This document shows, piece after piece, positions 1,268-36,027 of a stretch of DNA of 41,779 bases. The number at the start of each line of letters is the position of its first letter. Positions within the stretch are counted from its first letter, which is position 1. The position numbers were made by a program, and so were the translations under genes. Source of the DNA: a virus (Duplodnaviria; Caudoviricetes); the IMG/VR virus record IMGVR_UViG_3300032219_000342, positions 1 through 41,779 of that record. One strand, 5' to 3'. Below the pieces are notes generated by a model. It did no database searches. It had not been told where the DNA came from and saw nothing but the letters and a program-made list of their open reading frames with translations.

Positions 1268-1495
1268 ATGGACATAAGAAAGATATCGGTAGGCCCAGAT
1301 TACAAGGGCAGCTCAATGCATTACATTGTGGGGCAGAAGGTCCTTGGTGACAGCCATGAGATTCATCTCATCAAGTTTGTCATAGACACAGGATCAATTA
1401 GAATTTATATTATAAACGATAAGCAGGAGGTAGTAATGTGGAAGGAATTCAACTATACAATGCCTATTGCAATTGAATACAATATAAACTACTAA
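1268..1495 (+). CDS. Hypothetical protein
   Basis: 75 aa, A/T-rich start context, TAATG overlap with next gene. Confidence 0.75.
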   Translation: MDIRKISVGPDYKGSSMHYIVGQKVLGDSHEIHLIKFVIDTGSIRIYIINDKQEVVMWKEFNYTMPIAIEYNINY

Positions 1496-2058
1496 TGCAG
1501 TCCCCATTTGATTTTATCGTAAAGCCAATTAATGGTGAGCGATACAACAACACCAAGGATATTGGTGGCATTGAGTTCATTGTCAACACATCAGAGGAGG
1601 ACCACAAGTTCTCCAACAGATATGCTGAGGTGATTGAGGTGCCCTATGGATACGATGGTCCTATTCAGATAGGTGATACACTACTAGTCCACCACAATGC
1701 CTTCAAGTTCTACAACGACATTAGAGGTAGACGTAAGAGTGGTCGGGCATTTTTTAGAGACGATAAGTTCTTCATAGAGCATGATCAGTTCTATATGTAC
1801 AAGCGTGACGATAGGTGGTACACCTATGACCGATACTGCTTTGTTAAACCAATCCTTGCTATTGACTCTTACATTAAGAAGCCATTTACCAATGAGCCAC
1901 TTATGGGTGAGATGGTGTATCCAAACGAATACTTATTATCACAGAACGTGAGTTCTGGTGACCTAGTGTGCTTCAAGCCAGACAGTGAGTATGAGTTTGA
2001 TGTAGATGGTGAGAAGCTGTACAGGATGTATGATCATCAGATAACTATCAAGCTATGA
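1495..2058 (+). CDS. GroES/Cpn10-like co-chaperonin with two tandem repeats
   Basis: Two FxVKP...G/AE-V...GDxV/L units. The second ends GDLVCFKPDSEYEFDVDGEKLYRM, similar to the GroES C-terminal half. Confidence 0.65.
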   Translation: MQSPFDFIVKPINGERYNNTKDIGGIEFIVNTSEEDHKFSNRYAEVIEVPYGYDGPIQIGDTLLVHHNAFKFYNDIRGRRKSGRAFFRDDKFFIEHDQFYMYKRDDRWYTYDRYCFVKPILAIDSYIKKPFTNEPLMGEMVYPNEYLLSQNVSSGDLVCFKPDSEYEFDVDGEKLYRMYDHQITIKL

Positions 2059-9615: not shown

Positions 9616-9933
9616 ATGGCTAAGAAAAAAAATGGAGGCGATCCAATTAAAGGACCAAAAACACTTCCTCAGGTTACAGTAACTGCTTCTAGAATTGTTG
9701 ACAAACCAATAAAGAAACCTATTAATAGAACATTAATGGAGGTTGATCTTCCTAAAGGATATAAAATGTCAATTGATACTACAAATATGAACAAGCCAGA
9801 TCAAAACACCTATAATTATATGGTTAAGGATCCAACTGGAAAAGTTACTAGTAAGGGAAACATAGCTAGTGCCGAAGGTAAGTTTGGAGCTAGACAAGTA
9901 GTTAATAAGTTTAAGGCAAATAAAGGTAAATAA
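9616..9933 (+). CDS. Lys-rich basic small protein
   Basis: 105 aa, K/G/P-rich termini, A-rich start context. Confidence 0.7.
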   Translation: MAKKKNGGDPIKGPKTLPQVTVTASRIVDKPIKKPINRTLMEVDLPKGYKMSIDTTNMNKPDQNTYNYMVKDPTGKVTSKGNIASAEGKFGARQVVNKFKANKGK

Positions 9934-22161: not shown

Positions 22162-25100
22162 ATGGAAGAAGAACTATTAAAAGAATATGTGTCAACATAT
22201 TTAAATCCGAAGTATAATAGTGATTGGGATGTGGTTAATTCAAAGTTTCCTGAGTTATCTGGAGTTGACAAGGGACTATTAAAAGAGTACGTTGCAACAT
22301 ATTTAAATCCAAAATATAATAGTGATTGGGATGTGGTTAATTCAAAGTTCCCTGAACTATTCCCAGCAGGCCAGACTGCTGCCGAGCAACCTATAGCCGA
22401 GCAGCAAAAAAAAAACAGAAGTTCGGTATCACCATTTGTGGATGGTGGTTCGGAGCTTACAAAGTTTGATCCACGTACTGGTCAGGTTGTACAGGAGACT
22501 CCTGCGTTCACTAAGCCAAAAGAGAGAGACTTTAGTGGACTAGAAGTTAAAGTACAAGATGAAAAGATATTAACTAAGCAGCCTAGAGTAGAGAGACCTA
22601 TAGTTTCTAGTGAGTCAACTAAGACTGATCCTGATCAAATTGATTTTGATGGTAAGCTTGCGAAACAGAAAGTTTCTGCTCCAATGTCTTATTCAAATAT
22701 TTTCGCAAAAACAATAGCAGATCTTCCATCAGACTTAGCTGAAACCTGGTCTGTTGCATCAGCATTTATAGAAAGACAACTTGGTAAAGCTGGTGTCCCA
22801 GGAGCTAATCCTAATTTAACAGCTAAGGATATATATTTTTACAATGTAAGTGATGATTGGAGAAAATACACAGATGAAGTTTTTCCTACTAATCAAGAGG
22901 ATAGATCTACATTTTTAGGAGGAGTTGTTTCTGGACTAGGACAGGCAGTTCCTATGGTTATGTCTGGAGGAATATCAGCTGTATCCAAGGGGAAAGCGGC
23001 TATGGATATAGCCAAGGCTGCATTAAGTACTGGAACAAAACTTACTCCATTTATAAAAATGGGCAAGGATCTGGCAAAGCAAGCAGCATCTCCCTCTGGT
23101 TTAATAGGTGGATCTCAAATGTCTTCATCAATGTATAGACAAGCTATAGATTCTGGGGCAACTGAAGATCAGGCGCAGCAATACGCTATTGAAAACTTTT
23201 TTGTTGGAACAGTGGTAGAGTCACTCCCAATACAGTCAATGTTCTCAAGAATATTGAAGAAGGAACCTACTGCAAATATTTTAAGAATATTAAAAGAAGG
23301 TGGTGTTGGTGCCGGTGAAGAGTTCACTACCGAGATGTGGCAAGCCACTTATGAGAACTGGTCTGCTCAAAGAATATATGACTTCAATAGAGAAATGCTA
23401 GATGGAGTTGGTGAGGCTGGAGCAGTTGGTGGAACGGTTGGCTTTATCTTAAACACAGCACTGGCTGCATTGGTAGGTAGAAGGGCTAGAGTAAAGACTA
23501 AGGAGGAGGAAGTTATTTTAGATAAGTCAATAGATGAAGTTAAGTCAAAAATAAATACTGTAAATACAAACAATGAGAACATATCATCGGTTGCTGAAGA
23601 ACTAGATTCTATAGAGCCAATTGTTTTAAATTACGGAGACTCTAAATACTTTTTTGCTAGAGATAAATCTGGCAGAATGGAATTAGCTGATGAACCTATG
23701 CTTGAAGACCAAGCAAAGTCAATGTCTAATATGCTTGGCAAAGTTTATAAAGGACTTGAGTTTTCTATTGAAGAGGTGGCATCTAATGATCCATACACTC
23801 CAGTAAAATATAATGTTATTGCTAAAGAAAAAATAAACGAACAACAAAATGCCATTCAAGAGCAAGCAGCAGGTCAAGTACCTGTACAGCCAGGAGCCAC
23901 AGTTAGCCAAGAAGTGGAGCAAGGAGTACCCCAAGTAGAACCTCAAGTCACTGCCGAAGCGGGTGTCCAAGAAGAAATAAATGAGGAGGATATAGCCCTA
24001 AGCGGATTGAGTGATGGGTTTAGGGCAGTTACTCGTAACTCTTTTGATGTAAGGTCTGATAAAGAAGTTATGGATAATATAACTAAGAGAAAATCTTTTG
24101 CTACTTCTGTTACTAAAAATGGTAAAAAATATGTAGTAGTAGGTCTAAGACTAAATGAAGATGTTGGAGCTACTACATCAGGAAGAGATGGGTATTCTTT
24201 TGCTACAATAGAAGACAATGGAAATTTACCTGCTAACACTGTAGATGTTCTTACTCAAAAAGCTATATCTAATATTTCATCTGTTTACCCTAATATAAAG
24301 AATCCTACTGTTGATTTATTTAGACCAATAGAAGTTCAAGAAGTATCTCCTACTCAGCAGCCAGAGATAGATGCTATTGAAGCTCAGAGAAAACAAGCTC
24401 TCGAAGCAAATAAGGGTGGACTAAACAAGCCTTATTACTTAGGGGATACAGAGGGTCCAACATTAGGAGAGTTCATCAATCAAGAGTATGACGCTAAGAT
24501 AAATGCCCTGAGAGCCAAGGCTACTACACCACAAGTACAGGAAGTAACTCCACAACAAGTAGAGAAACAAAGAAAGGACTTGGATATGGAGGTTAAGGCT
24601 CTTGAAGATTTGCTTTCTGATCCTAATGAAGAACCTTTGTTTAAGAAGTCAGATAACGATACCAAGTTTGGTGAGTCAGCAGATGTTGTTGAAGATGTAG
24701 TACGTCAGATGAATGATTTGCCATCTGGCAATGTGACTACAACTATTACTCCTAAGCCACAAAAACCAATTGATATAGCTGACCTAGAGTCAAGAGCAGA
24801 TGTTCCTGTGAAGCGAACTACATTTGATGTTATCAAAGGTATACCTGCGGTGTTCTCTATATCTGACCAACTTAGAATTGGTAATGTGACTAACCCTAAT
24901 ACTGGTAATGTAATCGATAGACTATTTGGTGGTCTAGGATTTGGTTTCACTAAAGGACATGAAGGATTTGCATGGGCTAACACTACAAAAGATGAGGCCC
25001 AGAATCTTGTGAATAGAGCCGTGTCTGTCTACAATAATAACAAAGCATTGTTTGATGATTGGTGGGCTAAGAATCCAGAGTACAATGGACTAGTTCCATT

Positions 25101-28100
25101 GAACATAGCCAAGATGGCTGAAGGATCTATCATGTCAAACGAAGCATTGTATCGTGTTATTAAAGATAACTTTGCCTCATTCCCTAAGAAGAATAAAGTA
25201 GATGCTCTTAACTATCTTACAAATAATAGAATACCATCTATTATTGATTCATTAAATAAGAGTTTAAAAAATCCAAACCTAGCAAAGAACGCTAGGAAGA
25301 GTGTTGAGAAAAGGATAAAAGCTTTAACTAGCATACAGACAAAAATAAAGGATGGTAAGTTAAAGTCTGTAGACCAGTTGCTAGACCCTGAGTTTTATGG
25401 ATCACTTTCATTACCTGTAAGGGCAGAACTAATAAGCCAACTAACAATTGGTACTCCTAATAAACCAGGAGAACAAAAAGCTTCTGGCTTACCTGGAAAG
25501 AATACAGTACCACGAGCTCTACTTGGAATTGATCAAGAAGCTTCTGTATCTGCTAAGTCTATTGGACAAGCTAACCTAAATAAGGTAAGTCTTTCAAATG
25601 CGGCAGAGATTATTACTGAGCCGGCTATGAAAGATATTGAGCCTCGTCAGATAATTGCTATCTATGGAATAGATGTATTAAATCCAGGAGTAAAAGATAC
25701 AGTACACCCTAACTACAAGTTTGGTGTTAATGGTAGACCAATTGGTGTGCTTGAGAATAGCGTATCAATACAAGAGGCTTATCCTTTTGCTTACACAAAT
25801 ATACTTGAGTCTCTTATAGCTCAAGAAGAAAAGAGTGGAGAAGAATTGAAGGCGGCTCCTATTGACTCATTAATAAATGAGAAGATACCTGTTGGTATTG
25901 GGTTACCTAACCTTGAGTTTATTGGGGCTATTTCTCAGGGAGTAATGAGCAATGCTCAAAAGCTTTCTGCTTGGATAAACAAATCATTCCCTAGTGTAAT
26001 AATGTCTACTGATGCAGAGACATTTGCTAATGTACTTAAGTCTGATGGCGTAAGGGTTCAGCTAAAGGGTGATGAAGTAGTGTACGGTGTAACTGTTGAT
26101 GGAGACATCTATATAAATCCAGATGTACACAATAGTGATTCAGCATTATTTAACACAACTATTCACGAGTTCGGTCACGTATGGTTGAACTTCTTAGAGA
26201 CAACAGCTGAGGGTAAGTCTTTACTTAATCGTGGAATTAATCTTGTAAAGAAGACTGGTGAATATCAGGATCAACTTAAGAAGTTTAATGGAAATCAAAC
26301 TAAGGCTGCTAACGAGGCACTTGCTATATTGATAGGCAACAGAGGAGAGACCATTGTCAATGCCTCATTGAAAAGCAAGTTTCAGGAATGGTTACTTGGA
26401 GTGTGGAAGTATGTAAAGGATAAGTTCAAATTATCTGGTGACCTAACCCCACAAGAAATTCAAGATTTAACTCTTGATCAGTTCTTGGGTACAGCTATTG
26501 CTGATTTGTTTAGTGGTAAAGCATTGCCTGTTGGTGAGATTCAACTAAAGAAATTAAAGAACCCGGAGGCAGCATTCAGTAAGTCAGACTCAATAGATAG
26601 CATAGTTCAGAAAGGTAGGGCTAATGGATTCTCTGAAGAATCAATTAAGATTGTATTAGATAAGAGAGGATTCACTGAGCAGGCTATCAATGAAGCATTG
26701 GGCAAGCAGACACCTGCCGCTAAGAAGGTTGAGGTAACTGAGAAGCTACCTGCTAATTATGAGCGAATGATTGGTCAGCTTGAGGGTGTGATTGAGAAGT
26801 CATTGAAGAAGCGTGGTACTAGCCAAGAGACAGCCATGCAGAATGCCATCAACTACCTACAGGGTACGAAGGTATACGAGGAGGCTACTGACGTTCAGCG
26901 CGAGGCTATGTTCCGTGATGTACGCAAGCGATTCAAGAAGCGTGAGAAGTCTGCACCTACAGCTAAGAGAGTACTAGGTCAGAAGAAAGACGTTGTAACA
27001 ATCACTGTTGATTTGGCTAAGGAGAGAGATAGAATCATTAAGGAACAGATAAAGCAGGCTAAAGAAATCACTGGTGACCTTAATGATAAGAGAGCAGCAT
27101 TGGCTAATTCAATACGTTTGTTTGAAGATGGAGGAGTTATAACGACTGCTCAAACTAAGACCATAGTAAACAGAATTAGCAAAGTCAATCTAAATAATCC
27201 TATCATGGTAGATAGGTTACTTGCATACATTGAGAAGGTATTTGATAATGCTAACTATGCAGCTGACATGACCGAGCTAAGAAAGCTACAACGTCAGGCA
27301 AGAACCAAGAGGCATACATCAATGAAGGACTTTGTTGATAGGTTTACTTATATTAATCCAGAGATTATACCACTTGATAGAATACAAGACTACAAGGAAG
27401 CACTTGACTTCTTGAATAACCTAACTCCTTCTTATGCTAGAATGAATGAGATGCTTCCTGAGATTGAATCTTATCAGGTGTCTGAAGAGTTTGATGCTGC
27501 TAAGACTATGGATAGTCTTATGAGTAAGTATGAAAACATAGCATTGAATCAGGTTGGTAGTGTAGAGGATTATGTTAATCTAATAAAGGACATAAACTCC
27601 TTCAAGAGAAAGGCATTCCAGTTACTACAGAACGAAGCTATTATTCAGAAGGATTATGATGACCTAATCAATATGGTTGGAAAGGATCAAGCTGCTGTAG
27701 AGAAGAGATATGAAAAAGAAATCGCTCAGAGAAAGAAGGACTTAATCGCTGAGATAAAGAAGCAGCGACCAAAGACTAATCCTGAATTCACTAAGGAAGA
27801 GAATGATTTAATCAGGGAATACCTAGAGCTTAGCGATGCTGACCTTCAGAGTCTATCACCTGAGGACTTGTTTGTACTAAATGATTTGCTTGAGAACGTA
27901 AGCAATGGAGAGATTGACTACTATAGATTTAAAAATGTAGTTTCAAAAGCAGCCAATAACAAGGCTGGTGTTGAGGTTGGTAAGCAGTTAAAAGGATCTA
28001 AGTTAAGTCTTGGGTCAGCAGAATTGAGAAAGAAAATGGCTCAGTTTGAAAGCTCATTCTGGGAAGGGCTTCTTGGTTTAGGTAGAGCTACATCAGGACC

Positions 28101-30474
28101 ACTACAGAAGTTTATTATCTCCCCTTTCAATAGAGCAATTGGGTCTTATGAGAAATTTATCAGAGAGGGATTCAATGATTTCTTAAAGCTTAAGAAGAAG
28201 TATAAGATTGATGACAAGGGTATGAACAAGATTGGTATGCTAACCACATACCTTCAAGAGTACATGGCTCAGTTTGACCCTAAGAACAAAGGTGTTAAGG
28301 ATATCGGTAAGCGTGATTGGTTCAAGGAAATCTTAGCTACCGAAACCATGAGAGATGACTACTCCCCTGAAGAGCTTAAGATTATTGAAGAGATTCATAA
28401 GAGTCTACCTAAAGATAATGATGGTAATGTAAATCCAAAAGCAGTATATGATAGCTACATATCTAACGATGGCAATTTCTTTAACAAGAATGAGAAGGAT
28501 TTCTTTGATGCAATTCTAGAATGGAAGAAGAATAACTCAACATCAAAGCAGAAGGCAGCCAATGAGATGAGTGGCAATGCATTTAAGGAGATTCCTTTTC
28601 ACATGCTTAGATCAAGATACTCTGGCCAGACTTCACAGATTACCCCATCAACATCTGGTGATAATGGTATGGTAAGAATCAAAGCTGGGACTGGTAAGGA
28701 GAGAATTAGTGAGGCTGTTGGTGCAATCAACACAGACTTTGAAAAGCTATTTATAAAAGGACTAGAGCAGACTGGAAGAGATTACTTCTTGTCTAAGACA
28801 CTGAAGGATATAAATAACGTGTTGGCATCTGCTAAGAAAGAACTTAATGGAGACAAAGATCCTCTGGTTAAGGCAATATCTTATACGCTATCTGATGCAT
28901 TGGCTTACGAGTTCAGTGATACGGCTAGTCAGAACATATTGAAGAGATTGGTTCAGGCAAGAGCTGCCATGACATTGTTCGATCCTATCAGAGCAGGCGT
29001 TGAATTTACATCAACACTACTATCATTTGGTTTAAGAGCTAGAACATTATCTGGATACAAGAATTTATTCGGTAGTCAGGGAGAGATGAAAAATCTACTT
29101 GAGTTCACGGATAGCCCACTAAGACTACGTCAGAATATCAATAATGCAATTGATATCAATGATGGAAGGATAGAACCACAGGGTATGCTTATGAAGTGGA
29201 CCACATTCTTATCTGGTCTTCCAGAAAGAACAATGATGGTAACCTCGTGGATGCCAACATTCACTAGTGAGTTTCAGAATATCACGAAGGAGAAGTTCGA
29301 CATGAAGAAGTTTAATGATAGCGAAGCATACAGAGAGAAGTATGGTAAGGCAATCAAAGAAGCTTCTGCTGTAGCTGATGCTCAGACTGAGAAGATTATT
29401 GGTCCAACTACAAAGGCAGGACAGAGAAGAGACATTGTAATTGCTCCAGGCAAAACTGTTGGCAGAGACACGGTGTCTGGTCAGATCCTTGGATTTTTTA
29501 GTAACTATCCTTATAGAGAAATAACTGAATTTGTAAATGGATTCAGGGAAGCAGGAGAGGTATTGAAAAAGGGTGATACAGTAGAAGCAATCAGTCAGTT
29601 GCAAAAGCCACTGGGTATTGCATTGAATGTGGCTACTTATGGATTCTTATCATCAGTAGTATACGCCTCCAGATTAATTCTTCTTGGAGACGAGGATGAA
29701 GAGGAGAGAGGTAACAAATTGCTGGAGGAGTTGATGACTGCTAAAGGATTCATTGAGGAGACAGCAGCAAATGCAGCAGCATTAGCAGCAAGTAAGTACG
29801 CAGGGGGAGGTAGAGCTATTCTACAAGTACTAGGTACACTTGGAATGATGCTGACTGACAATGAGGAAACAAAGGCTACAATTAAAAAGATGCTAAAGGG
29901 AAGTGTCTACGTAGATCCTCTACCTACTCAGAAGTTAAGTGGATATGGCACCGCTGATAAAGTAAATACAGCAATACTAAAATACATCCCCCAGTTCGTG
30001 GTGCTTAGTAATATAATTATAGATACTATTGGATTGGGTAATGAATTAAAAGCCATAATTGACACGGTAGAAAAGAAAGGTGTGGAAGCATTGACAGAAG
30101 ATGAGAAGCTAAAAGTACTAGCATTGAGTGTCGTATTTACTGGAACTCAATTGTTACTAAACTATAGAGGGACATCCTTGCCATCTTACAACAACTTGAA
30201 AGCTGGTATGAAGAAGGTTAAGGAAGAGGCTGGAGTTGCTGATATATCTGCTGGGAAGGTTCCTGCTAAAAAGAAATCATCTGGAGGTGGAAGCAGCAGA
30301 GGTGGAGGAATGAACAAGACAGACATGAAGAAATATAAACCTGAGTTATATAATCAGATGTATGGACCTGGATCTGCCGGATATGAAGTAGAGCAGCAGG
30401 TAAAGGAATTTGAAAAGGAACAGAGAGAGTTTAAAAAGAAGATGAAGGATCAGATATATGGGGGCAAGGACTAA
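22162..30474 (+). CDS. Giant internal virion/ejection (polyvalent) protein with zincin metallopeptidase motif
   Basis: 2770 aa. HEFGH at 26164-26178 with a downstream NEALA; G/A-rich hydrophobic segments near aa 250-440 and in the C-terminal region. Confidence 0.8.
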   Translation: MEEELLKEYVSTYLNPKYNSDWDVVNSKFPELSGVDKGLLKEYVATYLNPKYNSDWDVVNSKFPELFPAGQTAAEQPIAEQQKKNRSSVSPFVDGGSELTKFDPRTGQVVQETPAFTKPKERDFSGLEVKVQDEKILTKQPRVERPIVSSESTKTDPDQIDFDGKLAKQKVSAPMSYSNIFAKTIADLPSDLAETWSVASAFIERQLGKAGVPGANPNLTAKDIYFYNVSDDWRKYTDEVFPTNQEDRSTFLGGVVSGLGQAVPMVMSGGISAVSKGKAAMDIAKAALSTGTKLTPFIKMGKDLAKQAASPSGLIGGSQMSSSMYRQAIDSGATEDQAQQYAIENFFVGTVVESLPIQSMFSRILKKEPTANILRILKEGGVGAGEEFTTEMWQATYENWSAQRIYDFNREMLDGVGEAGAVGGTVGFILNTALAALVGRRARVKTKEEEVILDKSIDEVKSKINTVNTNNENISSVAEELDSIEPIVLNYGDSKYFFARDKSGRMELADEPMLEDQAKSMSNMLGKVYKGLEFSIEEVASNDPYTPVKYNVIAKEKINEQQNAIQEQAAGQVPVQPGATVSQEVEQGVPQVEPQVTAEAGVQEEINEEDIALSGLSDGFRAVTRNSFDVRSDKEVMDNITKRKSFATSVTKNGKKYVVVGLRLNEDVGATTSGRDGYSFATIEDNGNLPANTVDVLTQKAISNISSVYPNIKNPTVDLFRPIEVQEVSPTQQPEIDAIEAQRKQALEANKGGLNKPYYLGDTEGPTLGEFINQEYDAKINALRAKATTPQVQEVTPQQVEKQRKDLDMEVKALEDLLSDPNEEPLFKKSDNDTKFGESADVVEDVVRQMNDLPSGNVTTTITPKPQKPIDIADLESRADVPVKRTTFDVIKGIPAVFSISDQLRIGNVTNPNTGNVIDRLFGGLGFGFTKGHEGFAWANTTKDEAQNLVNRAVSVYNNNKALFDDWWAKNPEYNGLVPLNIAKMAEGSIMSNEALYRVIKDNFASFPKKNKVDALNYLTNNRIPSIIDSLNKSLKNPNLAKNARKSVEKRIKALTSIQTKIKDGKLKSVDQLLDPEFYGSLSLPVRAELISQLTIGTPNKPGEQKASGLPGKNTVPRALLGIDQEASVSAKSIGQANLNKVSLSNAAEIITEPAMKDIEPRQIIAIYGIDVLNPGVKDTVHPNYKFGVNGRPIGVLENSVSIQEAYPFAYTNILESLIAQEEKSGEELKAAPIDSLINEKIPVGIGLPNLEFIGAISQGVMSNAQKLSAWINKSFPSVIMSTDAETFANVLKSDGVRVQLKGDEVVYGVTVDGDIYINPDVHNSDSALFNTTIHEFGHVWLNFLETTAEGKSLLNRGINLVKKTGEYQDQLKKFNGNQTKAANEALAILIGNRGETIVNASLKSKFQEWLLGVWKYVKDKFKLSGDLTPQEIQDLTLDQFLGTAIADLFSGKALPVGEIQLKKLKNPEAAFSKSDSIDSIVQKGRANGFSEESIKIVLDKRGFTEQAINEALGKQTPAAKKVEVTEKLPANYERMIGQLEGVIEKSLKKRGTSQETAMQNAINYLQGTKVYEEATDVQREAMFRDVRKRFKKREKSAPTAKRVLGQKKDVVTITVDLAKERDRIIKEQIKQAKEITGDLNDKRAALANSIRLFEDGGVITTAQTKTIVNRISKVNLNNPIMVDRLLAYIEKVFDNANYAADMTELRKLQRQARTKRHTSMKDFVDRFTYINPEIIPLDRIQDYKEALDFLNNLTPSYARMNEMLPEIESYQVSEEFDAAKTMDSLMSKYENIALNQVGSVEDYVNLIKDINSFKRKAFQLLQNEAIIQKDYDDLINMVGKDQAAVEKRYEKEIAQRKKDLIAEIKKQRPKTNPEFTKEENDLIREYLELSDADLQSLSPEDLFVLNDLLENVSNGEIDYYRFKNVVSKAANNKAGVEVGKQLKGSKLSLGSAELRKKMAQFESSFWEGLLGLGRATSGPLQKFIISPFNRAIGSYEKFIREGFNDFLKLKKKYKIDDKGMNKIGMLTTYLQEYMAQFDPKNKGVKDIGKRDWFKEILATETMRDDYSPEELKIIEEIHKSLPKDNDGNVNPKAVYDSYISNDGNFFNKNEKDFFDAILEWKKNNSTSKQKAANEMSGNAFKEIPFHMLRSRYSGQTSQITPSTSGDNGMVRIKAGTGKERISEAVGAINTDFEKLFIKGLEQTGRDYFLSKTLKDINNVLASAKKELNGDKDPLVKAISYTLSDALAYEFSDTASQNILKRLVQARAAMTLFDPIRAGVEFTSTLLSFGLRARTLSGYKNLFGSQGEMKNLLEFTDSPLRLRQNINNAIDINDGRIEPQGMLMKWTTFLSGLPERTMMVTSWMPTFTSEFQNITKEKFDMKKFNDSEAYREKYGKAIKEASAVADAQTEKIIGPTTKAGQRRDIVIAPGKTVGRDTVSGQILGFFSNYPYREITEFVNGFREAGEVLKKGDTVEAISQLQKPLGIALNVATYGFLSSVVYASRLILLGDEDEEERGNKLLEELMTAKGFIEETAANAAALAASKYAGGGRAILQVLGTLGMMLTDNEETKATIKKMLKGSVYVDPLPTQKLSGYGTADKVNTAILKYIPQFVVLSNIIIDTIGLGNELKAIIDTVEKKGVEALTEDEKLKVLALSVVFTGTQLLLNYRGTSLPSYNNLKAGMKKVKEEAGVADISAGKVPAKKKSSGGGSSRGGGMNKTDMKKYKPELYNQMYGPGSAGYEVEQQVKEFEKEQREFKKKMKDQIYGGKD
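22174..22359 (+). repeat. Two-copy tandem repeat, 102-bp period (LLKEYVxTYLNPKYNSDWDVVNSKFPEL)
   Basis: Copies start at 22174 and 22276; differences are mostly synonymous. Confidence 0.95.
22410..22456 (+). other. Candidate -1 programmed frameshift signal (A_AAA_AAC + stem-loop)
   Basis: A10 tract 22406-22415, in-frame heptamer 22410-22416, hairpin TTCGGTATCACCAT-TTGTGG-ATGGTGGTTCGGA starting about 5 nt later. Confidence 0.6.
23849..23980 (+). CDS. Nested small basic protein in the +1 frame of the giant gene (TAG at 23936-23938; TAA at 23978-23980 if read through)
   Basis: MPFKSKQQVKYLYSQEPQLAKKWSKEYPK*NLKSLPKRVSKKK with A-rich leader AAAAAATAAACGAACAACAAA-ATG. Confidence 0.65.
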
Positions 30475-32277: not shown

Positions 32278-33644
32278 TATGTATTTTTAAAATGATTAAC
32301 TGTGTAGTCCTTCTTCTTTATAACTGCCTTGTACACGTCATGCTCAATGCCTCCCTTACTGAAGACCCAGTACACATGGTTGAACGAACGATCTTTTGTT
32401 GTCATCCTGTCCCTGCTCTGCCAGTAGCTCGTAGCACTGAAGTCAATGTTGTAGTACACCAAAAACTTGGCATGCCTAAGACTGATCCCCTCCCTGCCAC
32501 TAACTATCTGGAGTGCAATGCTCTTATCCGTGCTCTCAAATATACTAAGATCAGTTGTTAGTTCATCATTAAATACTGACTGTAAGGCAGATAGCTCTTC
32601 CTTAAATTTATAGAAGATCCCTATCTTACTTCCTTGAAATTTTTGTTTAATGAACTCAGCCTTGCTGGTGTCCAGCACCATGCTGTTACCACTCTCAAAC
32701 TTAATAGTCCCACTGCATAGCTGGTGCACCTTCATCATCAACTTCACTGCCGTGTCAGCCAAGATCACCTCAGTCTTGCCCTCAATCACCAAGTCTTTCT
32801 TTAGTCTCTTAATAAGCTGCATGGTAGACTCCTTCATCTCCACCTCTAGGATCTCCTCAGTAACTGATGACACGAACCCTGCATCCTTCTGTGAGAAGTT
32901 TATCATGTGTGGCTTCATCTCCTCGATGATACTATCCAACCCATCGCTGTAGTCATTGATGAATAGACCATTGATGTTCTTCTGCTTCACCTTCACATGA
33001 ACCTCAACAAACTTATAGAAGTTAACGAACCGCTTGAATGGACTCTTGGGTATGCCGTACACCTGATGGTACATCTGTGAGTAGCTCTCCGGTGTTGGAG
33101 TACCCGACATGAGTATCACCATAGGCTTATACTTAGAGATGGCGTGTCGTATCATTACAGCCCGATTGCTGGGCTTTGGGAACGCACCTATACTATGTGC
33201 CTCATCGATGACTATCAAGTCAAATTTAAAGCTGTCTACCACGTTGTGAAGGCTCTCATAGTTCACCACCTTTATGGTGAAGCTAGGCTTCAGCAAATCG
33301 TAGTCCTTCTCGATGCTGCCGATGGCCTTCTTCTTGGTTACGAACAGCACAGATTTAGCTCCGCACTCACTGGCTATGCCTAGGCTAGTCAATGTCTTGC
33401 CTGTCCGCACCTCCATCGCTAGGTACACGAAGCCATATGTCTCAATGGCTCGTGTTCCCTTTGATATAATCTCCCTCTGGTATGGTCTAAACTGCATGCT
33501 ATATGTCCCGTAATAAGATAGACTGTTCTTTATTTTAGTTACTACATCTGGATCAACAAACTTACTCTTTGATACCACATCGTAAAGTGTACCGCAGTAT
33601 CGTAGCATCTGCTGATCTGAATAACCAGGTACTCTATCAATCAT
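32277..33644 (-). CDS. SF2 (SNF2-like) DNA helicase
   Basis: Q motif FRPYQ, Walker A MEVRTGKT, Walker B IDEAH, motif III SGTP, motif VI QSRDR. Confidence 0.92.
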   Translation of the reverse strand: MIDRVPGYSDQQMLRYCGTLYDVVSKSKFVDPDVVTKIKNSLSYYGTYSMQFRPYQREIISKGTRAIETYGFVYLAMEVRTGKTLTSLGIASECGAKSVLFVTKKKAIGSIEKDYDLLKPSFTIKVVNYESLHNVVDSFKFDLIVIDEAHSIGAFPKPSNRAVMIRHAISKYKPMVILMSGTPTPESYSQMYHQVYGIPKSPFKRFVNFYKFVEVHVKVKQKNINGLFINDYSDGLDSIIEEMKPHMINFSQKDAGFVSSVTEEILEVEMKESTMQLIKRLKKDLVIEGKTEVILADTAVKLMMKVHQLCSGTIKFESGNSMVLDTSKAEFIKQKFQGSKIGIFYKFKEELSALQSVFNDELTTDLSIFESTDKSIALQIVSGREGISLRHAKFLVYYNIDFSATSYWQSRDRMTTKDRSFNHVYWVFSKGGIEHDVYKAVIKKKDYTVNHFKNT

Positions 33645-36027
33645 TCGAATGAATTATAATCCACCTACCCATCATGTCTCTGCCCTCCTCTGGTGCAACA
33701 CCATACTTGAACAGACCATATGATACCAACCACTTGTAGAACTTAGTCCTGCTGATTGTCATCTTAGACTTTGGTCCGTAGTCAGGGTACTCGTTGACGA
33801 AGTCATTGTACAGCTCGTTCTTGTACAGCCTTGTATCTGTCTCCAGCGTGTTGTTCGTAGGCTGACCCTCCACCAGACCGCACCACTCGATGAAGTCATG
33901 AGCGGTCTCCGCAGATAGCTGTCTGATCTTTAGGTTCACGAAATTACTCTTCACTATACCTGTATGTAGGTAGTTGGATAGACACCCGATCATGTAGTTG
34001 TCAAACTCACACCAGTCATCATCATTCCAGTCCCCGAACATCAGCTTACCAAACTCATCCAATGGCGTGAACGACTTGGAGTAGTGCTGGTGTAGCTCCA
34101 GTTCAGACTTACGTCTGGCAAAGCTGTTGCCCGATCCCTTGATGGCATAGTTAGTAGTGATGGCAATCTTTGGAGACTTACTGAATGGGATCTTAATCGC
34201 ATCCTTGTTCTTCTTCTCCAGAGTTAAGCCTTCAGTCACCACGCTAAACAAACGCTCAAATTCAAAGTACTTCTTCACATCATCGAACACTAGGATTTGG
34301 GTATCAGCAGACACCAGCTGGTAGGCGAAGCTTCGCTCAAATGCAAAGGACTTACCATCAATCGTTACCACCTTCTTCATCTTTGCTAGTGCGTTCATGA
34401 ACAGACCCTTGCCTGTGCCACCCTCAGGGTTGTCGCTGATCACCTCATCGTTTAGGATCACTGCCGGACAGAAGCTTAGGTTCTTGTAGCCATGCATCAG
34501 GAACCCTATGTTACTCTCCATCGCCTGTACCCTACCAGCATCACCCCCACAGATGTTAAGTATGAACTTCTTGTAGTCACACGCATCCGTTACATCACAC
34601 ATGATGAAGTTGCGATCAATCACGTGATCATTCCACACATATCCACCCAAGTCAAGGTAGTCGATAGCCTTAACACCAGTCTTGGTAACCTGCACAGCAC
34701 AGTTCTTGTAGTATAGGTAGGATGTGTCCTTGGTATCCTCAATAAATAAGATGTCTATGGTTGACAGCATCGATAGGAACTCCTCCTTGAAGAACCTAGT
34801 GTTGTCTGCAAAGTAGTTGTACACCCCGATGTCATCCAGCTCTAGCAGATGGTTCAGCACGTAGTCCTTCATCTCCTTCTCAGAGGTGTGGTCTATCAGG
34901 TTGTTGGTGACCTTGACAAACACGTAGTTCTTACTACCCTCAGGGCAGAACTTGTAGAACCCATTGTCCTCAAGGAACTGCTTAAATAGAATGTGTACTA
35001 TTCGTATGACTCCCTTATCGCTCTTGTCCCAGAATGTCTTCTTTGAGTTCTCCTCCTCCACCTTGGTCAAGACCGCTTCGATAGTATCCGTATCCAGTTG
35101 AGAGTCCTGTAGCTGAATACGTATTTCTTTTTTTGATACACCCCTTCTTAGCTTAGCCTTGATGGAGTTGATCTTCTCCTCATCCTCGTAGTACTTGGTA
35201 CCAAAGTTACCAGTTTGTCGGTAGGCTGAGTCAATTGTCATACCTATCTCACGTACAGTGAAGTCCTCTGTAGCATACTCGTTCAGCACGTAGGATGCAA
35301 GGGGCTTGCTGATACCGAAGTCATTGAATGCCATCGCTAGGATGTACACGTTATGGTTTCGCTGTCCCTCAATCATTGGGTACTTCTTAGTCCACCACTT
35401 GACAAGGATCTCAATCACCTTGTTCTCATCTGTGATAGGTATGGTTGGCTTGTCCTTGAACTTACTTACCTCCGTGTACTCTAGATCCTCTATGACATCC
35501 CACAGGGACGAGTTCTCGTTAACGAATATCAGTGGATCGTATGACTCGTAGCATACACGTGATACGTTCTTACTAGTCTTGTCGAAGTACTGGCTGTTGA
35601 AGTGCTTCTCTAGGCTGTTGAAATAGTTGATGTGGTTGTCTTGATCGGCCGGTATTTTTACCAATACCTTCAAGCCATTGCCAGATGGTGATAAGAATAC
35701 GGAGTAAACGTACTTGTTCTTTGACATCCTCTCCTTGTCCTCATTTAAGTCCTTGGTCTTCTGATAGCCATCAAAGTCTAGGCATATCAAACCTGAGTGC
35801 TGAATCAGGGATGCATCTGTTCTCTTGTTGAATATACCACTAAAGCATATGGCAGGCAGTAACTTCTTCAAGTCATTCCTCTCCTGCTTATTCTTCTCTG
35901 CTCTGATCCTCTTGATCAGATCCTTGGATGATCCAGATCGTATTCTGTCAAGGATTAGACTCACATTCCTAGGGAATGGGGTACTAGTATCCTTGATACT
36001 CTGGAATATTGTCACTTGATATGTCAT
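33637..36027 (-). CDS. Primase-helicase: AEP (VirE_N/BT4734-like) + PriCT + SF3-like ATPase
   Basis: KKLLPAICFSG, LICLDFD, SPSGNGLK and SYDP motifs; EGQRN (PriCT); Walker A GGTGKG, Walker B FDD, ITTN. Confidence 0.9.
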   Translation of the reverse strand: MTYQVTIFQSIKDTSTPFPRNVSLILDRIRSGSSKDLIKRIRAEKNKQERNDLKKLLPAICFSGIFNKRTDASLIQHSGLICLDFDGYQKTKDLNEDKERMSKNKYVYSVFLSPSGNGLKVLVKIPADQDNHINYFNSLEKHFNSQYFDKTSKNVSRVCYESYDPLIFVNENSSLWDVIEDLEYTEVSKFKDKPTIPITDENKVIEILVKWWTKKYPMIEGQRNHNVYILAMAFNDFGISKPLASYVLNEYATEDFTVREIGMTIDSAYRQTGNFGTKYYEDEEKINSIKAKLRRGVSKKEIRIQLQDSQLDTDTIEAVLTKVEEENSKKTFWDKSDKGVIRIVHILFKQFLEDNGFYKFCPEGSKNYVFVKVTNNLIDHTSEKEMKDYVLNHLLELDDIGVYNYFADNTRFFKEEFLSMLSTIDILFIEDTKDTSYLYYKNCAVQVTKTGVKAIDYLDLGGYVWNDHVIDRNFIMCDVTDACDYKKFILNICGGDAGRVQAMESNIGFLMHGYKNLSFCPAVILNDEVISDNPEGGTGKGLFMNALAKMKKVVTIDGKSFAFERSFAYQLVSADTQILVFDDVKKYFEFERLFSVVTEGLTLEKKNKDAIKIPFSKSPKIAITTNYAIKGSGNSFARRKSELELHQHYSKSFTPLDEFGKLMFGDWNDDDWCEFDNYMIGCLSNYLHTGIVKSNFVNLKIRQLSAETAHDFIEWCGLVEGQPTNNTLETDTRLYKNELYNDFVNEYPDYGPKSKMTISRTKFYKWLVSYGLFKYGVAPEEGRDMMGRWIIIHSND
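35089..35134 (-). other. Candidate -1 frameshift signal (A_AAA_AAA + stem-loop) between primase and helicase domains
   Basis: Minus strand TCA AAA AAA GAA ATA, followed by a 9-bp stem CGTATTCAG/CTGGATACG after a 6-nt spacer. Confidence 0.45.

What the first reader, a model, noticed from the sequence alone, without database searches (positions are those of the whole stretch)
22402..22469. -1 frameshift cassette at the start of the giant gene giving a 102-aa product with a Trp-rich tail
Seen: A10 run with in-frame A_AAA_AAC (22410-22416), about 5-nt spacer, then a roughly 13-14 bp hairpin with G-U pairs and a bulge (22422-22455). It sits right after the duplicated N-terminal domain and a short linker. 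The -1 frame reads QKFGITICGWWFGAYKV to TGA at 22467-22469. Established: X_XXY_YYZ plus a 3' stem-loop is the canonical -1 PRF architecture, and A runs of 9 or more also allow RNA polymerase slippage. Inference: one gene yields the 2770-aa cargo and a short isoform that shares the N-terminal domain but ends in an aromatic, possibly membrane- or partner-binding tail, at a fixed ratio. This would parallel tail-chaperone G/GT frameshifts but in a podoviral ejection protein.
Basis: partly seen in the sequence, partly recalled or inferred. Interest (0 to 1): 0.82.

Follow-up and report, generated by a model that had tools for sequence, protein, structure and literature searches.

The report
Slip site hides second phage protein
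A run of ten A's near the start of a giant phage particle-protein gene is kept in nearly all related phages examined and opens onto a conserved hidden reading frame, so the gene very likely also makes a small 102-residue protein, probably by RNA-polymerase slippage here, while a sister group of phages would make the same kind of protein by a ribosomal frameshift.

Summary
Real and conserved, but probably not a hairpin-driven frameshift here. The A10 run, A_AAA_AAC, hairpin and -1 peptide are as described. The phage is a Bacteroidota podovirus related to Elemovirus, Pachyviridae and Pervagoviridae. Of 47 non-redundant relatives picked by another gene, 46 carry A9-11 at this spot. The -1 frame (consensus YG[IF]x[IF]GxWF[FI]G, then stop) shows purifying selection: 59% synonymous changes, against 28% in the giant frame. 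A search for that motif alone found two access routes: A>=9 in 67 of 112 loci, and in the other 45 mostly classical -1 sites (G_GGA_AAN in 25) with an H-type pseudoknot about 6 nt downstream (34 of 45, against 3 of 67 A-run loci). So the short protein is likely selected, reached here most likely by one-A polymerase slippage and in one sister clade by ribosomal frameshifting, as for dnaX. The window's hairpin is lineage-limited. It is not G/GT-type. Expression and function are untested. Ten literature searches found no description; this scan noted both forms before on other genomes.

The parts
22162..30474 (+). Giant 2770-aa ORF, last gene of the virion module (frame 0 product); likely an internal virion (cargo/ejection) protein
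   Evidence: No PHROG, significant Pfam or PDB hit. The syntenic giant of Cellulophaga phage phi18:3 is annotated as virion protein by MS/MS. HExxH at residue 1335.
22162..22413 (+). Shared N-terminal 84 codons: two ~34-residue helical repeats and a linker ending in Lys codons
   Evidence: 76 of 87 nt identical between repeats; helical in the model of a natural homologue.
22406..22415 (+). A10 slip site (contains in-frame A_AAA_AAA and, with 22416, A_AAA_AAC)
   Evidence: A9-11 at this position in 46 of 47 anchor-picked relatives, against 5 runs in 838 kb elsewhere.
22413..22469 (+). Overlapping -1 frame coding for the short product's tail, stop TGA at 22467-22469; conserved motif at 22422-22457
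   Evidence: predicted beta-hairpin in a natural in-frame homologue, pLDDT about 61-65.
22419..22458 (+). Stem-loop (9-bp core 22428-22449) overlapping the -1 motif; found in the window's own clade only, role uncertain
   Evidence: In 17 close relatives the core is identical in 14; one compensatory pair in 2 sequences and two stem-breaking changes.
22415..22543 (+). +1 frame (126-aa product if one A is lost); not under selection, likely at most a by-product
   Evidence: 11% synonymous changes in this frame; length 0-58 codons among relatives.

Best explanation
The A10 run is a conserved site that likely works by RNA-polymerase slippage: one extra A in some transcripts would move ribosomes into the conserved -1 frame and give a 102-aa protein besides the 2770-aa one. 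Shown by sequence comparison: the run, the open and selected -1 frame, and the replacement of the run in one sister clade by a classical slippery site plus pseudoknot leading into the same frame. Inferred: that slippage happens and in the +1-A direction (about 0.6; ribosomal shift about 0.3), that the short protein is made and functional (about 0.9), and that the host polymerase does the slipping. The short protein keeps the giant's helical N-terminal repeats and ends in a basic stretch plus a predicted aromatic/glycine beta-hairpin. My working model for function (about 0.4) is a small co-packaged ejection or assembly subunit: the shared N-terminus would address both products to the same place in the virion, the hairpin would dock on a membrane or add strands to a partner, and recoding would set the small-to-giant ratio.
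For: Run conservation without selection for it: 46 of 47 non-redundant loci, lengths 9 (10), 10 (34), 11 (2); background 0.0024 per 400 nt. Elsewhere in these giants 0 of 69 KKK triplets use AAA-AAA-AAA although 53% of Lys codons are AAA. -1 frame selected: single-base codon differences are synonymous in 59% (-1), 28% (0), 11% (+1) over 34 sequences. The -1 frame is open from run to motif in 107 of 107 loci (pattern allowed any phase) and has no ATG of its own in 40 of 40. Motif-only scan: 67 of 112 have A>=9; of the other 45, 25 have in-frame G_GGA_AAN against 1 of 405 control windows; 73 of 73 GGGAAAG hits lie in the -1 phase. Pseudoknot in 34 of 45 non-run loci but 3 of 67 run loci; covariation. 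Literature: slippage is efficient in vivo at runs of 9 (PMC5009743 passages); dnaX uses slippage in Thermus and frameshifting in E. coli (PMC1088944 Background); ribosome sliding is weak at A9-A10 (PMC4363877 section 11); A_AAA_AAC is a poor E. coli -1 site and G_GGA_AAG among the best (PMC4066793 passages); E. coli polymerase showed no deletion on the poly(A) runs tested (PMC6260861 section 19), which fits selection on the -1 frame only.
Against: No RNA or protein evidence: the two RNA runs laid do not cover the site and are contigs only. The window does have a strong hairpin, kept in 14 of 17 close relatives with one compensatory pair, and A-run loci show a weak excess of structure (z < -2 in 16 of 67, controls 6 of 67), so a ribosomal share is not excluded. 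A_AAA_AAA and A_AAA_AAC are used by IS elements for -1 shifts. E. coli polymerase slips poorly on short poly(A) and prefers poly(T); nothing was found on Bacteroidota polymerase. One relative (L029) has lost both run and motif, so the product may be dispensable. The full motif is met in only 19 of 44 anchor-set tails, GxW/Y in 30 of 44. Pairwise counts are not independent.
Confidence: 0.6

Rival explanations
1. Ribosomal -1 frameshift at A_AAA_AAA/A_AAA_AAC stimulated by the 3' hairpin, or ribosome sliding on three AAA codons; same 102-aa product.
For: In-frame heptamers and a z -4 hairpin in the window; a sister clade clearly has the ribosomal architecture; most runs end on a codon boundary (60 of 68); IS elements use these heptamers.
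Against: Seven A's would suffice, yet pure runs are 9-11; the best bacterial form A_AAA_AAG is rare at the runs; no conserved spacer or structure in run loci; the window's pseudoknot score is reached by 13 of 100 shuffles; sliding is weak below A11.
Confidence: 0.28
2. DNA-level length variation (replication slippage): a minority of genomes carry A8 or A11 and encode only the short protein.
For: Databases hold 58-100-aa proteins with N-terminal domain and tail in one frame (25 of 26 hits); L204 has A8 in that state.
Against: 9 of the 10 clusters looked up are singletons and one has 2 members; several come from G_GGA_AAG-type loci with no run, so they look like assembly indels; 106 of 107 run loci keep the giant in frame; the pseudoknot clade cannot work this way.
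Confidence: 0.04
3. No recoding: a Lys-rich linker and an RNA or peptide motif in frame 0 explain the pattern, or the run only attenuates giant-protein output.
For: No expression data; L029 lacks the cassette; poly(A) tracts lower protein output (PMC4363877 abstract).
Against: Synonymous bias in the -1 frame and not in frame 0; two unrelated -1 signals in fixed phase to the same motif; AAA triplets avoided elsewhere.
Confidence: 0.08

Closest known systems
dnaX tau/gamma: Thermus thermophilus transcriptional slippage at a run of 9, E. coli -1 frameshift at A_AAA_AAG (PMC1088944 Background; PMC5009743 passages)
   Same: One gene gives a long and a short product; homologues reach the short one by polymerase slippage or by ribosomal frameshifting.
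   Different: In dnaX the shift lies late and just truncates; here it lies at about 3% of the gene and adds a conserved, selected tail. Phage virion gene, not a replicase.
E. coli copA / CopA(Z) (one review passage, PMC6771820)
   Same: -1 shift makes a short functional protein from the start of a much larger one.
   Different: Described as premature termination giving a truncated chaperone; here the transframe tail itself is conserved, and this window uses an A run.
Citrobacter rodentium tssM1 A11 slippage (PMC4256274 abstract and section 7)
   Same: Poly-A slippage (about 20%) gives two lengths of an envelope-spanning injection-machine protein; both forms and their ratio are needed.
   Different: There slippage restores the long form; here the long form is frame 0 and slippage gives a very short one with a new tail.
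Phage lambda G/GT tail-assembly chaperone frameshift (PMC5009743 passages)
   Same: Programmed -1 event in a phage morphogenesis gene that sets a product ratio.
   Different: G/GT shifts near the 3' end to make a longer fusion in long-tailed phages; here a podovirus-type giant gene shifts near its 5' end to make a shorter product.
crAss001 cargo proteins gp45-gp50 (PMC10172136 passages)
   Same: Block of large internal virion proteins at the end of the virion module in a Bacteroidota podovirus.
   Different: No sequence homology shown; no DFDGD/DYDGD motif in 0 of 93 long giants or the window's; 'frameshift' has 0 occurrences in that paper (listing).

Membership tests
Programmed transcriptional slippage (Thermus dnaX, tssM type) | Homopolymer of 9 or more A/T inside the coding sequence | tested here: met
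   A10 at 22406-22415
Programmed transcriptional slippage (Thermus dnaX, tssM type) | Run length conserved and not broken by synonymous AAG | tested here: met
   46 of 47 at A9-11; 0 of 69 KKK elsewhere are all AAA
Programmed transcriptional slippage (Thermus dnaX, tssM type) | Alternative frame gives a selected product | tested here: met
   59% synonymous in -1 against 28% and 11%
Programmed transcriptional slippage (Thermus dnaX, tssM type) | mRNA heterogeneous in run length while DNA is not | not testable with these tools
   Only assembled contigs available; RNA runs did not cover the site
Classical -1 programmed ribosomal frameshift (this window) | In-frame X_XXY_YYZ | tested here: met
   A_AAA_AAA at 22407 and A_AAA_AAC at 22410
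Classical -1 programmed ribosomal frameshift (this window) | Stimulatory structure 5-9 nt downstream | tested here: inconclusive
   Strong hairpin, but start at 2, 5 or 11 nt by fold; pseudoknot score matched by 13 of 100 shuffles
Classical -1 programmed ribosomal frameshift (this window) | Stimulator conserved among homologues with the same site | tested here: not met
   A-run loci: pseudoknot 3 of 67, first stem 8 of 67; kept only in the close clade
Classical -1 programmed ribosomal frameshift (G_GGA_AAG sister clade) | Slippery site, ~6-nt spacer, covarying pseudoknot, fixed phase | tested here: met
Classical -1 programmed ribosomal frameshift (either form) | Measured shift above background | not testable with these tools
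   Needs a reporter or MS
Lambda G/GT tail-chaperone frameshift | Chaperone gene of a long-tailed phage; shift near the 3' end giving a longer fusion | tested here: not met
   Shift at codon 84-85 of 2770 giving a shorter product; cultured relatives Gundel and Calle are podoviral
Internal virion (ejection/cargo) protein | Present in virions | tested here: inconclusive
   Syntenic phi18:3 gp123 annotated from MS/MS, but the window's giant did not match it by phmmer; assignment rests on synteny

The most novel reading that the evidence does not exclude
A broad group of Bacteroidota podoviruses (Pachyviridae, Pervagoviridae, Elemovirus and hundreds of uncultured lake and sea phages) all make an unannotated small virion protein from the first codons of their giant cargo gene; its beta-hairpin tail is a membrane- or portal-engaging part of the ejection machine, and evolution has swapped the recoding route between polymerase slippage and a pseudoknot frameshift while keeping the product.
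Probability: 0.35. Interest if true: 0.88.

Novelty: new variant of a known kind. Interest (0 to 1): 0.72.

Why it matters
It adds a likely missing gene product to a common group of aquatic Bacteroidota phages, in cultured models where it can be tested (Elemovirus, Gundel, Calle, phi38:1, phi18:3). It gives a phage counterpart of the dnaX case in which homologues reach one product by polymerase slippage or by ribosomal frameshifting, plus dozens of natural covarying bacterial pseudoknot signals. It also explains why this gene is split in the GenBank records of four Cellulophaga phages and Panino: the break falls on the run.

Tried and rejected
1) 'Long ORF in the shifted frame': phi18:3, phi19:3, phi46:3, phi13:2 and Maribacter phage Panino have A9 with the giant in the -1 frame. 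Panino was assembled from Nanopore reads alone; Illumina-sequenced Gundel and Calle have A10 in frame, and 106 of 107 IMG/VR run loci are in frame. I take these as probable homopolymer undercalls (about 70%), unresolved: the 2013 Cellulophaga paper is not held, 454 sequencing is my recall, phi38:1 from the same series has A10, and IMG/VR held only the same four genomes. 2) CxC motifs in the -1 tails of the sister clade: they coincide with pseudoknot stems, so I read them as likely by-products. 3) Reads: no raw reads; RNA contigs X13 and X20 do not cover the site; DNA contigs show no indel in the run. 4) Fold searches of the short-protein model: no BFVD hit at E <= 0.001, best PDB Z 4.9; ESM Atlas gave no usable hit; the giant could not be run there. 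5) Four-copy complex of the short protein: no answer. 6) Single-sequence fold showed no structure for the tail. 7) Rfam: 0 matches in 6 pseudoknot loci. 8) One search used a mis-indexed structure string and is void; one search is the corrected count, made after seeing the slide control. 9) Tetramer sites (A_AAG, U_UUY; 13 of 45) are common in controls (123 of 405) and count only with their pseudoknots. 10) Bacterial genome scan: of 120 motif hits about 8 are phage-like cassettes in MAG contigs of mixed labels; no host could be read from them. 11) The careful tree did not finish; only the quick tree is used.

Full report
Observation. A10 at 22406-22415 is the longest homopolymer of the window, A_AAA_AAA and A_AAA_AAC are in frame with the 2770-aa ORF, and of 30 in-frame slippery heptamers listed in 36 ORFs only these two have a downstream fold below -11 kcal/mol. 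The hairpin has z about -4 in 34-54-nt folds and -1.5 to -1.7 in 81-84-nt folds. One added A gives 102 aa ending at TGA 22467-22469; one lost A gives 126 aa.

Context. PHROG hits give terminase, portal and virion genes upstream and helicase, primase, exonuclease and Erf genes on the other strand. The portal and a 136-aa gene match Flavobacterium elemo phages, Maribacter phage Panino, Pervagoviridae (Calle, phi38:1) and Pachyviridae (phi18:3, Gundel); Gundel and Calle are podoviral (PMC8776804 passages). The giant follows two mid-sized genes at the end of the virion module; in phi18:3 the three syntenic genes are annotated from virion MS/MS. The window's giant has no family or PDB hit and did not match phi18:3 gp123, so 'ejection protein' is an inference from position and size.

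Conservation, tested without bias. I fetched 64 IMG/VR loci with the 136-aa gene. 47 besides the copy identical to the window reach far enough into the giant gene; with 6 GenBank records that makes 53, or 47 non-redundant. 46 of 47 have A9 (10), A10 (34) or A11 (2) within 400 nt of the start; elsewhere on the same strand there are 5 such runs in 838 kb. The exception, L029, has lost run and motif. Beyond residue 140 of these giants, 0 of 69 KKK triplets use three AAA codons, with AAA at 53% of Lys codons. phi38:1, Calle and Panino also carry the run.

The -1 frame is coding. In 44 complete cases it runs 15-43 codons past the run (median 20), is basic and 28% aromatic, with GxW/Y in 30 and the full G[IFAV]xxGx[WYCV]xxG in 19. 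A frame-blind ungapped 36-nt alignment of 34 sequences put 32 in one phase. Single-base codon differences were synonymous in 59% for -1, 28% for the giant frame and 11% for +1; mean identity was 0.43, 0.30 and 0.25 (pairs not independent). No ATG opens that frame in 40 of 40 loci, so it needs a frame change.

Two routes into the frame. A scan for the motif alone returned 120 loci (capped; about 460 estimated), 115 non-redundant; I dropped 3 (two chance matches, one with an early stop). 67 of 112 have A>=9. Of the other 45, 25 have in-frame G_GGA_AAN (1 of 405 control windows), 3 A_AAA_AAG, 13 tetramers and 4 others; three site calls (L204, L211, L253) are probably wrong. A simple pseudoknot score of my own, first stem 5-8 nt after the site, beat shuffles in 34 of 45 of these loci and 3 of 67 run loci. 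On 24 hand-picked sequences 84% of cells pair and 9 of 15 pairs change on both sides, against 25-47% pairing for slid controls; the structure was read from these sequences, so this leans in its favour. A pattern with GGGAAAG and a free 35-65-nt gap gave 73 loci (61 non-redundant), all 73 in the -1 phase; 72 lie 28-99 codons after an ATG and 71 have homologues of the window's virion genes nearby. Their giants do not match the window's by phmmer (0 of 69) but 53 of 55 long ones carry HExxH, as do the window's and 21 of 38 run-type ones. On a quick tree of the 307-aa virion protein (80 rows) the 32 G_GGA_AAG rows form one clade (SH-aLRT 100) with run-type lineages on both sides; root and long branches are unsure, so a run-type ancestor is suggested, not shown.

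Mechanism in this window. The window belongs to the run class. A heptamer needs 7 A's, yet runs are 9-11, the threshold reported for bacterial polymerase slippage (PMC5009743 passages). Ribosome sliding was weak at A9-A10 and robust at A11 in an E. coli system (PMC4363877 section 11). A_AAA_AAC is a weak and G_GGA_AAG a strong E. coli -1 site, though IS elements use both (PMC4066793 passages). The run class lacks a conserved stimulator; the excess of structure is small (z < -2 in 16 of 67, controls 6 of 67). The window's hairpin core is identical in 14 of 17 close relatives, with one compensatory pair (2 sequences) and two breaks; it overlaps the selected motif, so its conservation is not independent evidence. 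I put slippage at about 0.6 and a ribosomal route at about 0.3; both may add up. Against slippage, E. coli polymerase slipped little on poly(A) up to 8 and preferred poly(T) (PMC6260861 section 19). No RNA reads cover the site.

The product. I modelled a natural in-frame homologue (P0013) with a 57-row alignment: helical repeats (pLDDT 73-83), a loose linker, and a beta-hairpin at 81-96 (pLDDT 61-65). No fold or family match was found. A profile of 74 tails found 26 proteins among 1.84 billion; 25 are 58-100 aa and 24 of them end in the motif. They look like indel variants of these genes rather than a separate family. Function is inferred only: shared N-terminus as address, hairpin as membrane- or partner-binding part, recoding as ratio control, as with tssM, where both forms and their ratio matter (PMC4256274 abstract and section 7).

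Shifted-frame relatives. Four Cellulophaga phages and Panino show A9 with the giant out of frame. Panino is Nanopore-only (PMC11590407 passages); I judge these probable sequencing errors, not proven.

Known or new. Closest are dnaX (slippage or frameshift in homologues; PMC1088944 Background), copA/CopA(Z) (one passage of PMC6771820) and tssM. It fails the G/GT test. Ten searches of the held library listed no paper describing recoding in this gene; the Pachyviridae paper has 0 occurrences of 'frameshift' or 'slippage' in its main text, and the first 300,000 characters of the 2016 review have none of 'podovir' or 'ejection'. PMC13704836 (passages) mentions only T7 and lambda types; PMC6815119 had no copA passage. 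Subscription papers, the 2013 Cellulophaga paper and all supplements were not seen and could mention it. This scan has noted both the A-run form and the pseudoknot form on other genomes; those notes are not independent support. My results on run conservation and G_GGA_AAG sites came before I read them; the pseudoknot analysis came.

Verdict. A real, conserved recoding cassette that likely yields an unannotated small protein; new variant of a known kind; interest 0.72.

Noticed in passing
window 26164-26178 (+), residue 1335 of the giant: HEFGH, an HExxH motif as in zincin-like peptidases (family link recalled, not tested); HExxH is in 53 of 55 long pseudoknot-clade giants and 21 of 38 run-type giants.
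   Followed up: partly
window 35128-35134 (- strand, primase-polymerase gene 33637-36027): In-frame A_AAA_AAA with a -10 kcal/mol hairpin 6 nt downstream and a 37-codon open -1 frame; no homologue among stored loci to test conservation.
   Followed up: partly
L029 12955-13400: Relative that has lost both the A run and the -1 motif while keeping the giant ORF.
   Followed up: partly
L076 13310-13633; L081, L082, L327; L330 15718-15902 (-): GenBank/RefSeq records of phi18:3, phi46:3, phi13:2, phi19:3 and Panino split or truncate the giant gene at an A9 run; the 'structural protein' labels of the last two genes look shifted in some records.
   Followed up: yes
window 22416, run X4: A contig of depth 5.5 has A for C at 22416, which would lengthen the run to 12 without an indel.
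   Followed up: no
L330 (Panino), after the A run: The hidden frame carries the motif twice (RKWFIGF...GWFFGI).
   Followed up: no
L022, L026: Divergent -1 tails of a different pattern (FINWWHKFTGWLRLF), possibly helical rather than hairpin.
   Followed up: no
window 9625-9632 (+): A8 run in the first codons of the 105-aa ORF 9616-9933 after the major virion protein gene; -1 frame closes after 5 codons.
   Followed up: no
window 1495-2058 (+): GroES-like co-chaperonin gene upstream of the terminase, as in phi38:1.
   Followed up: no
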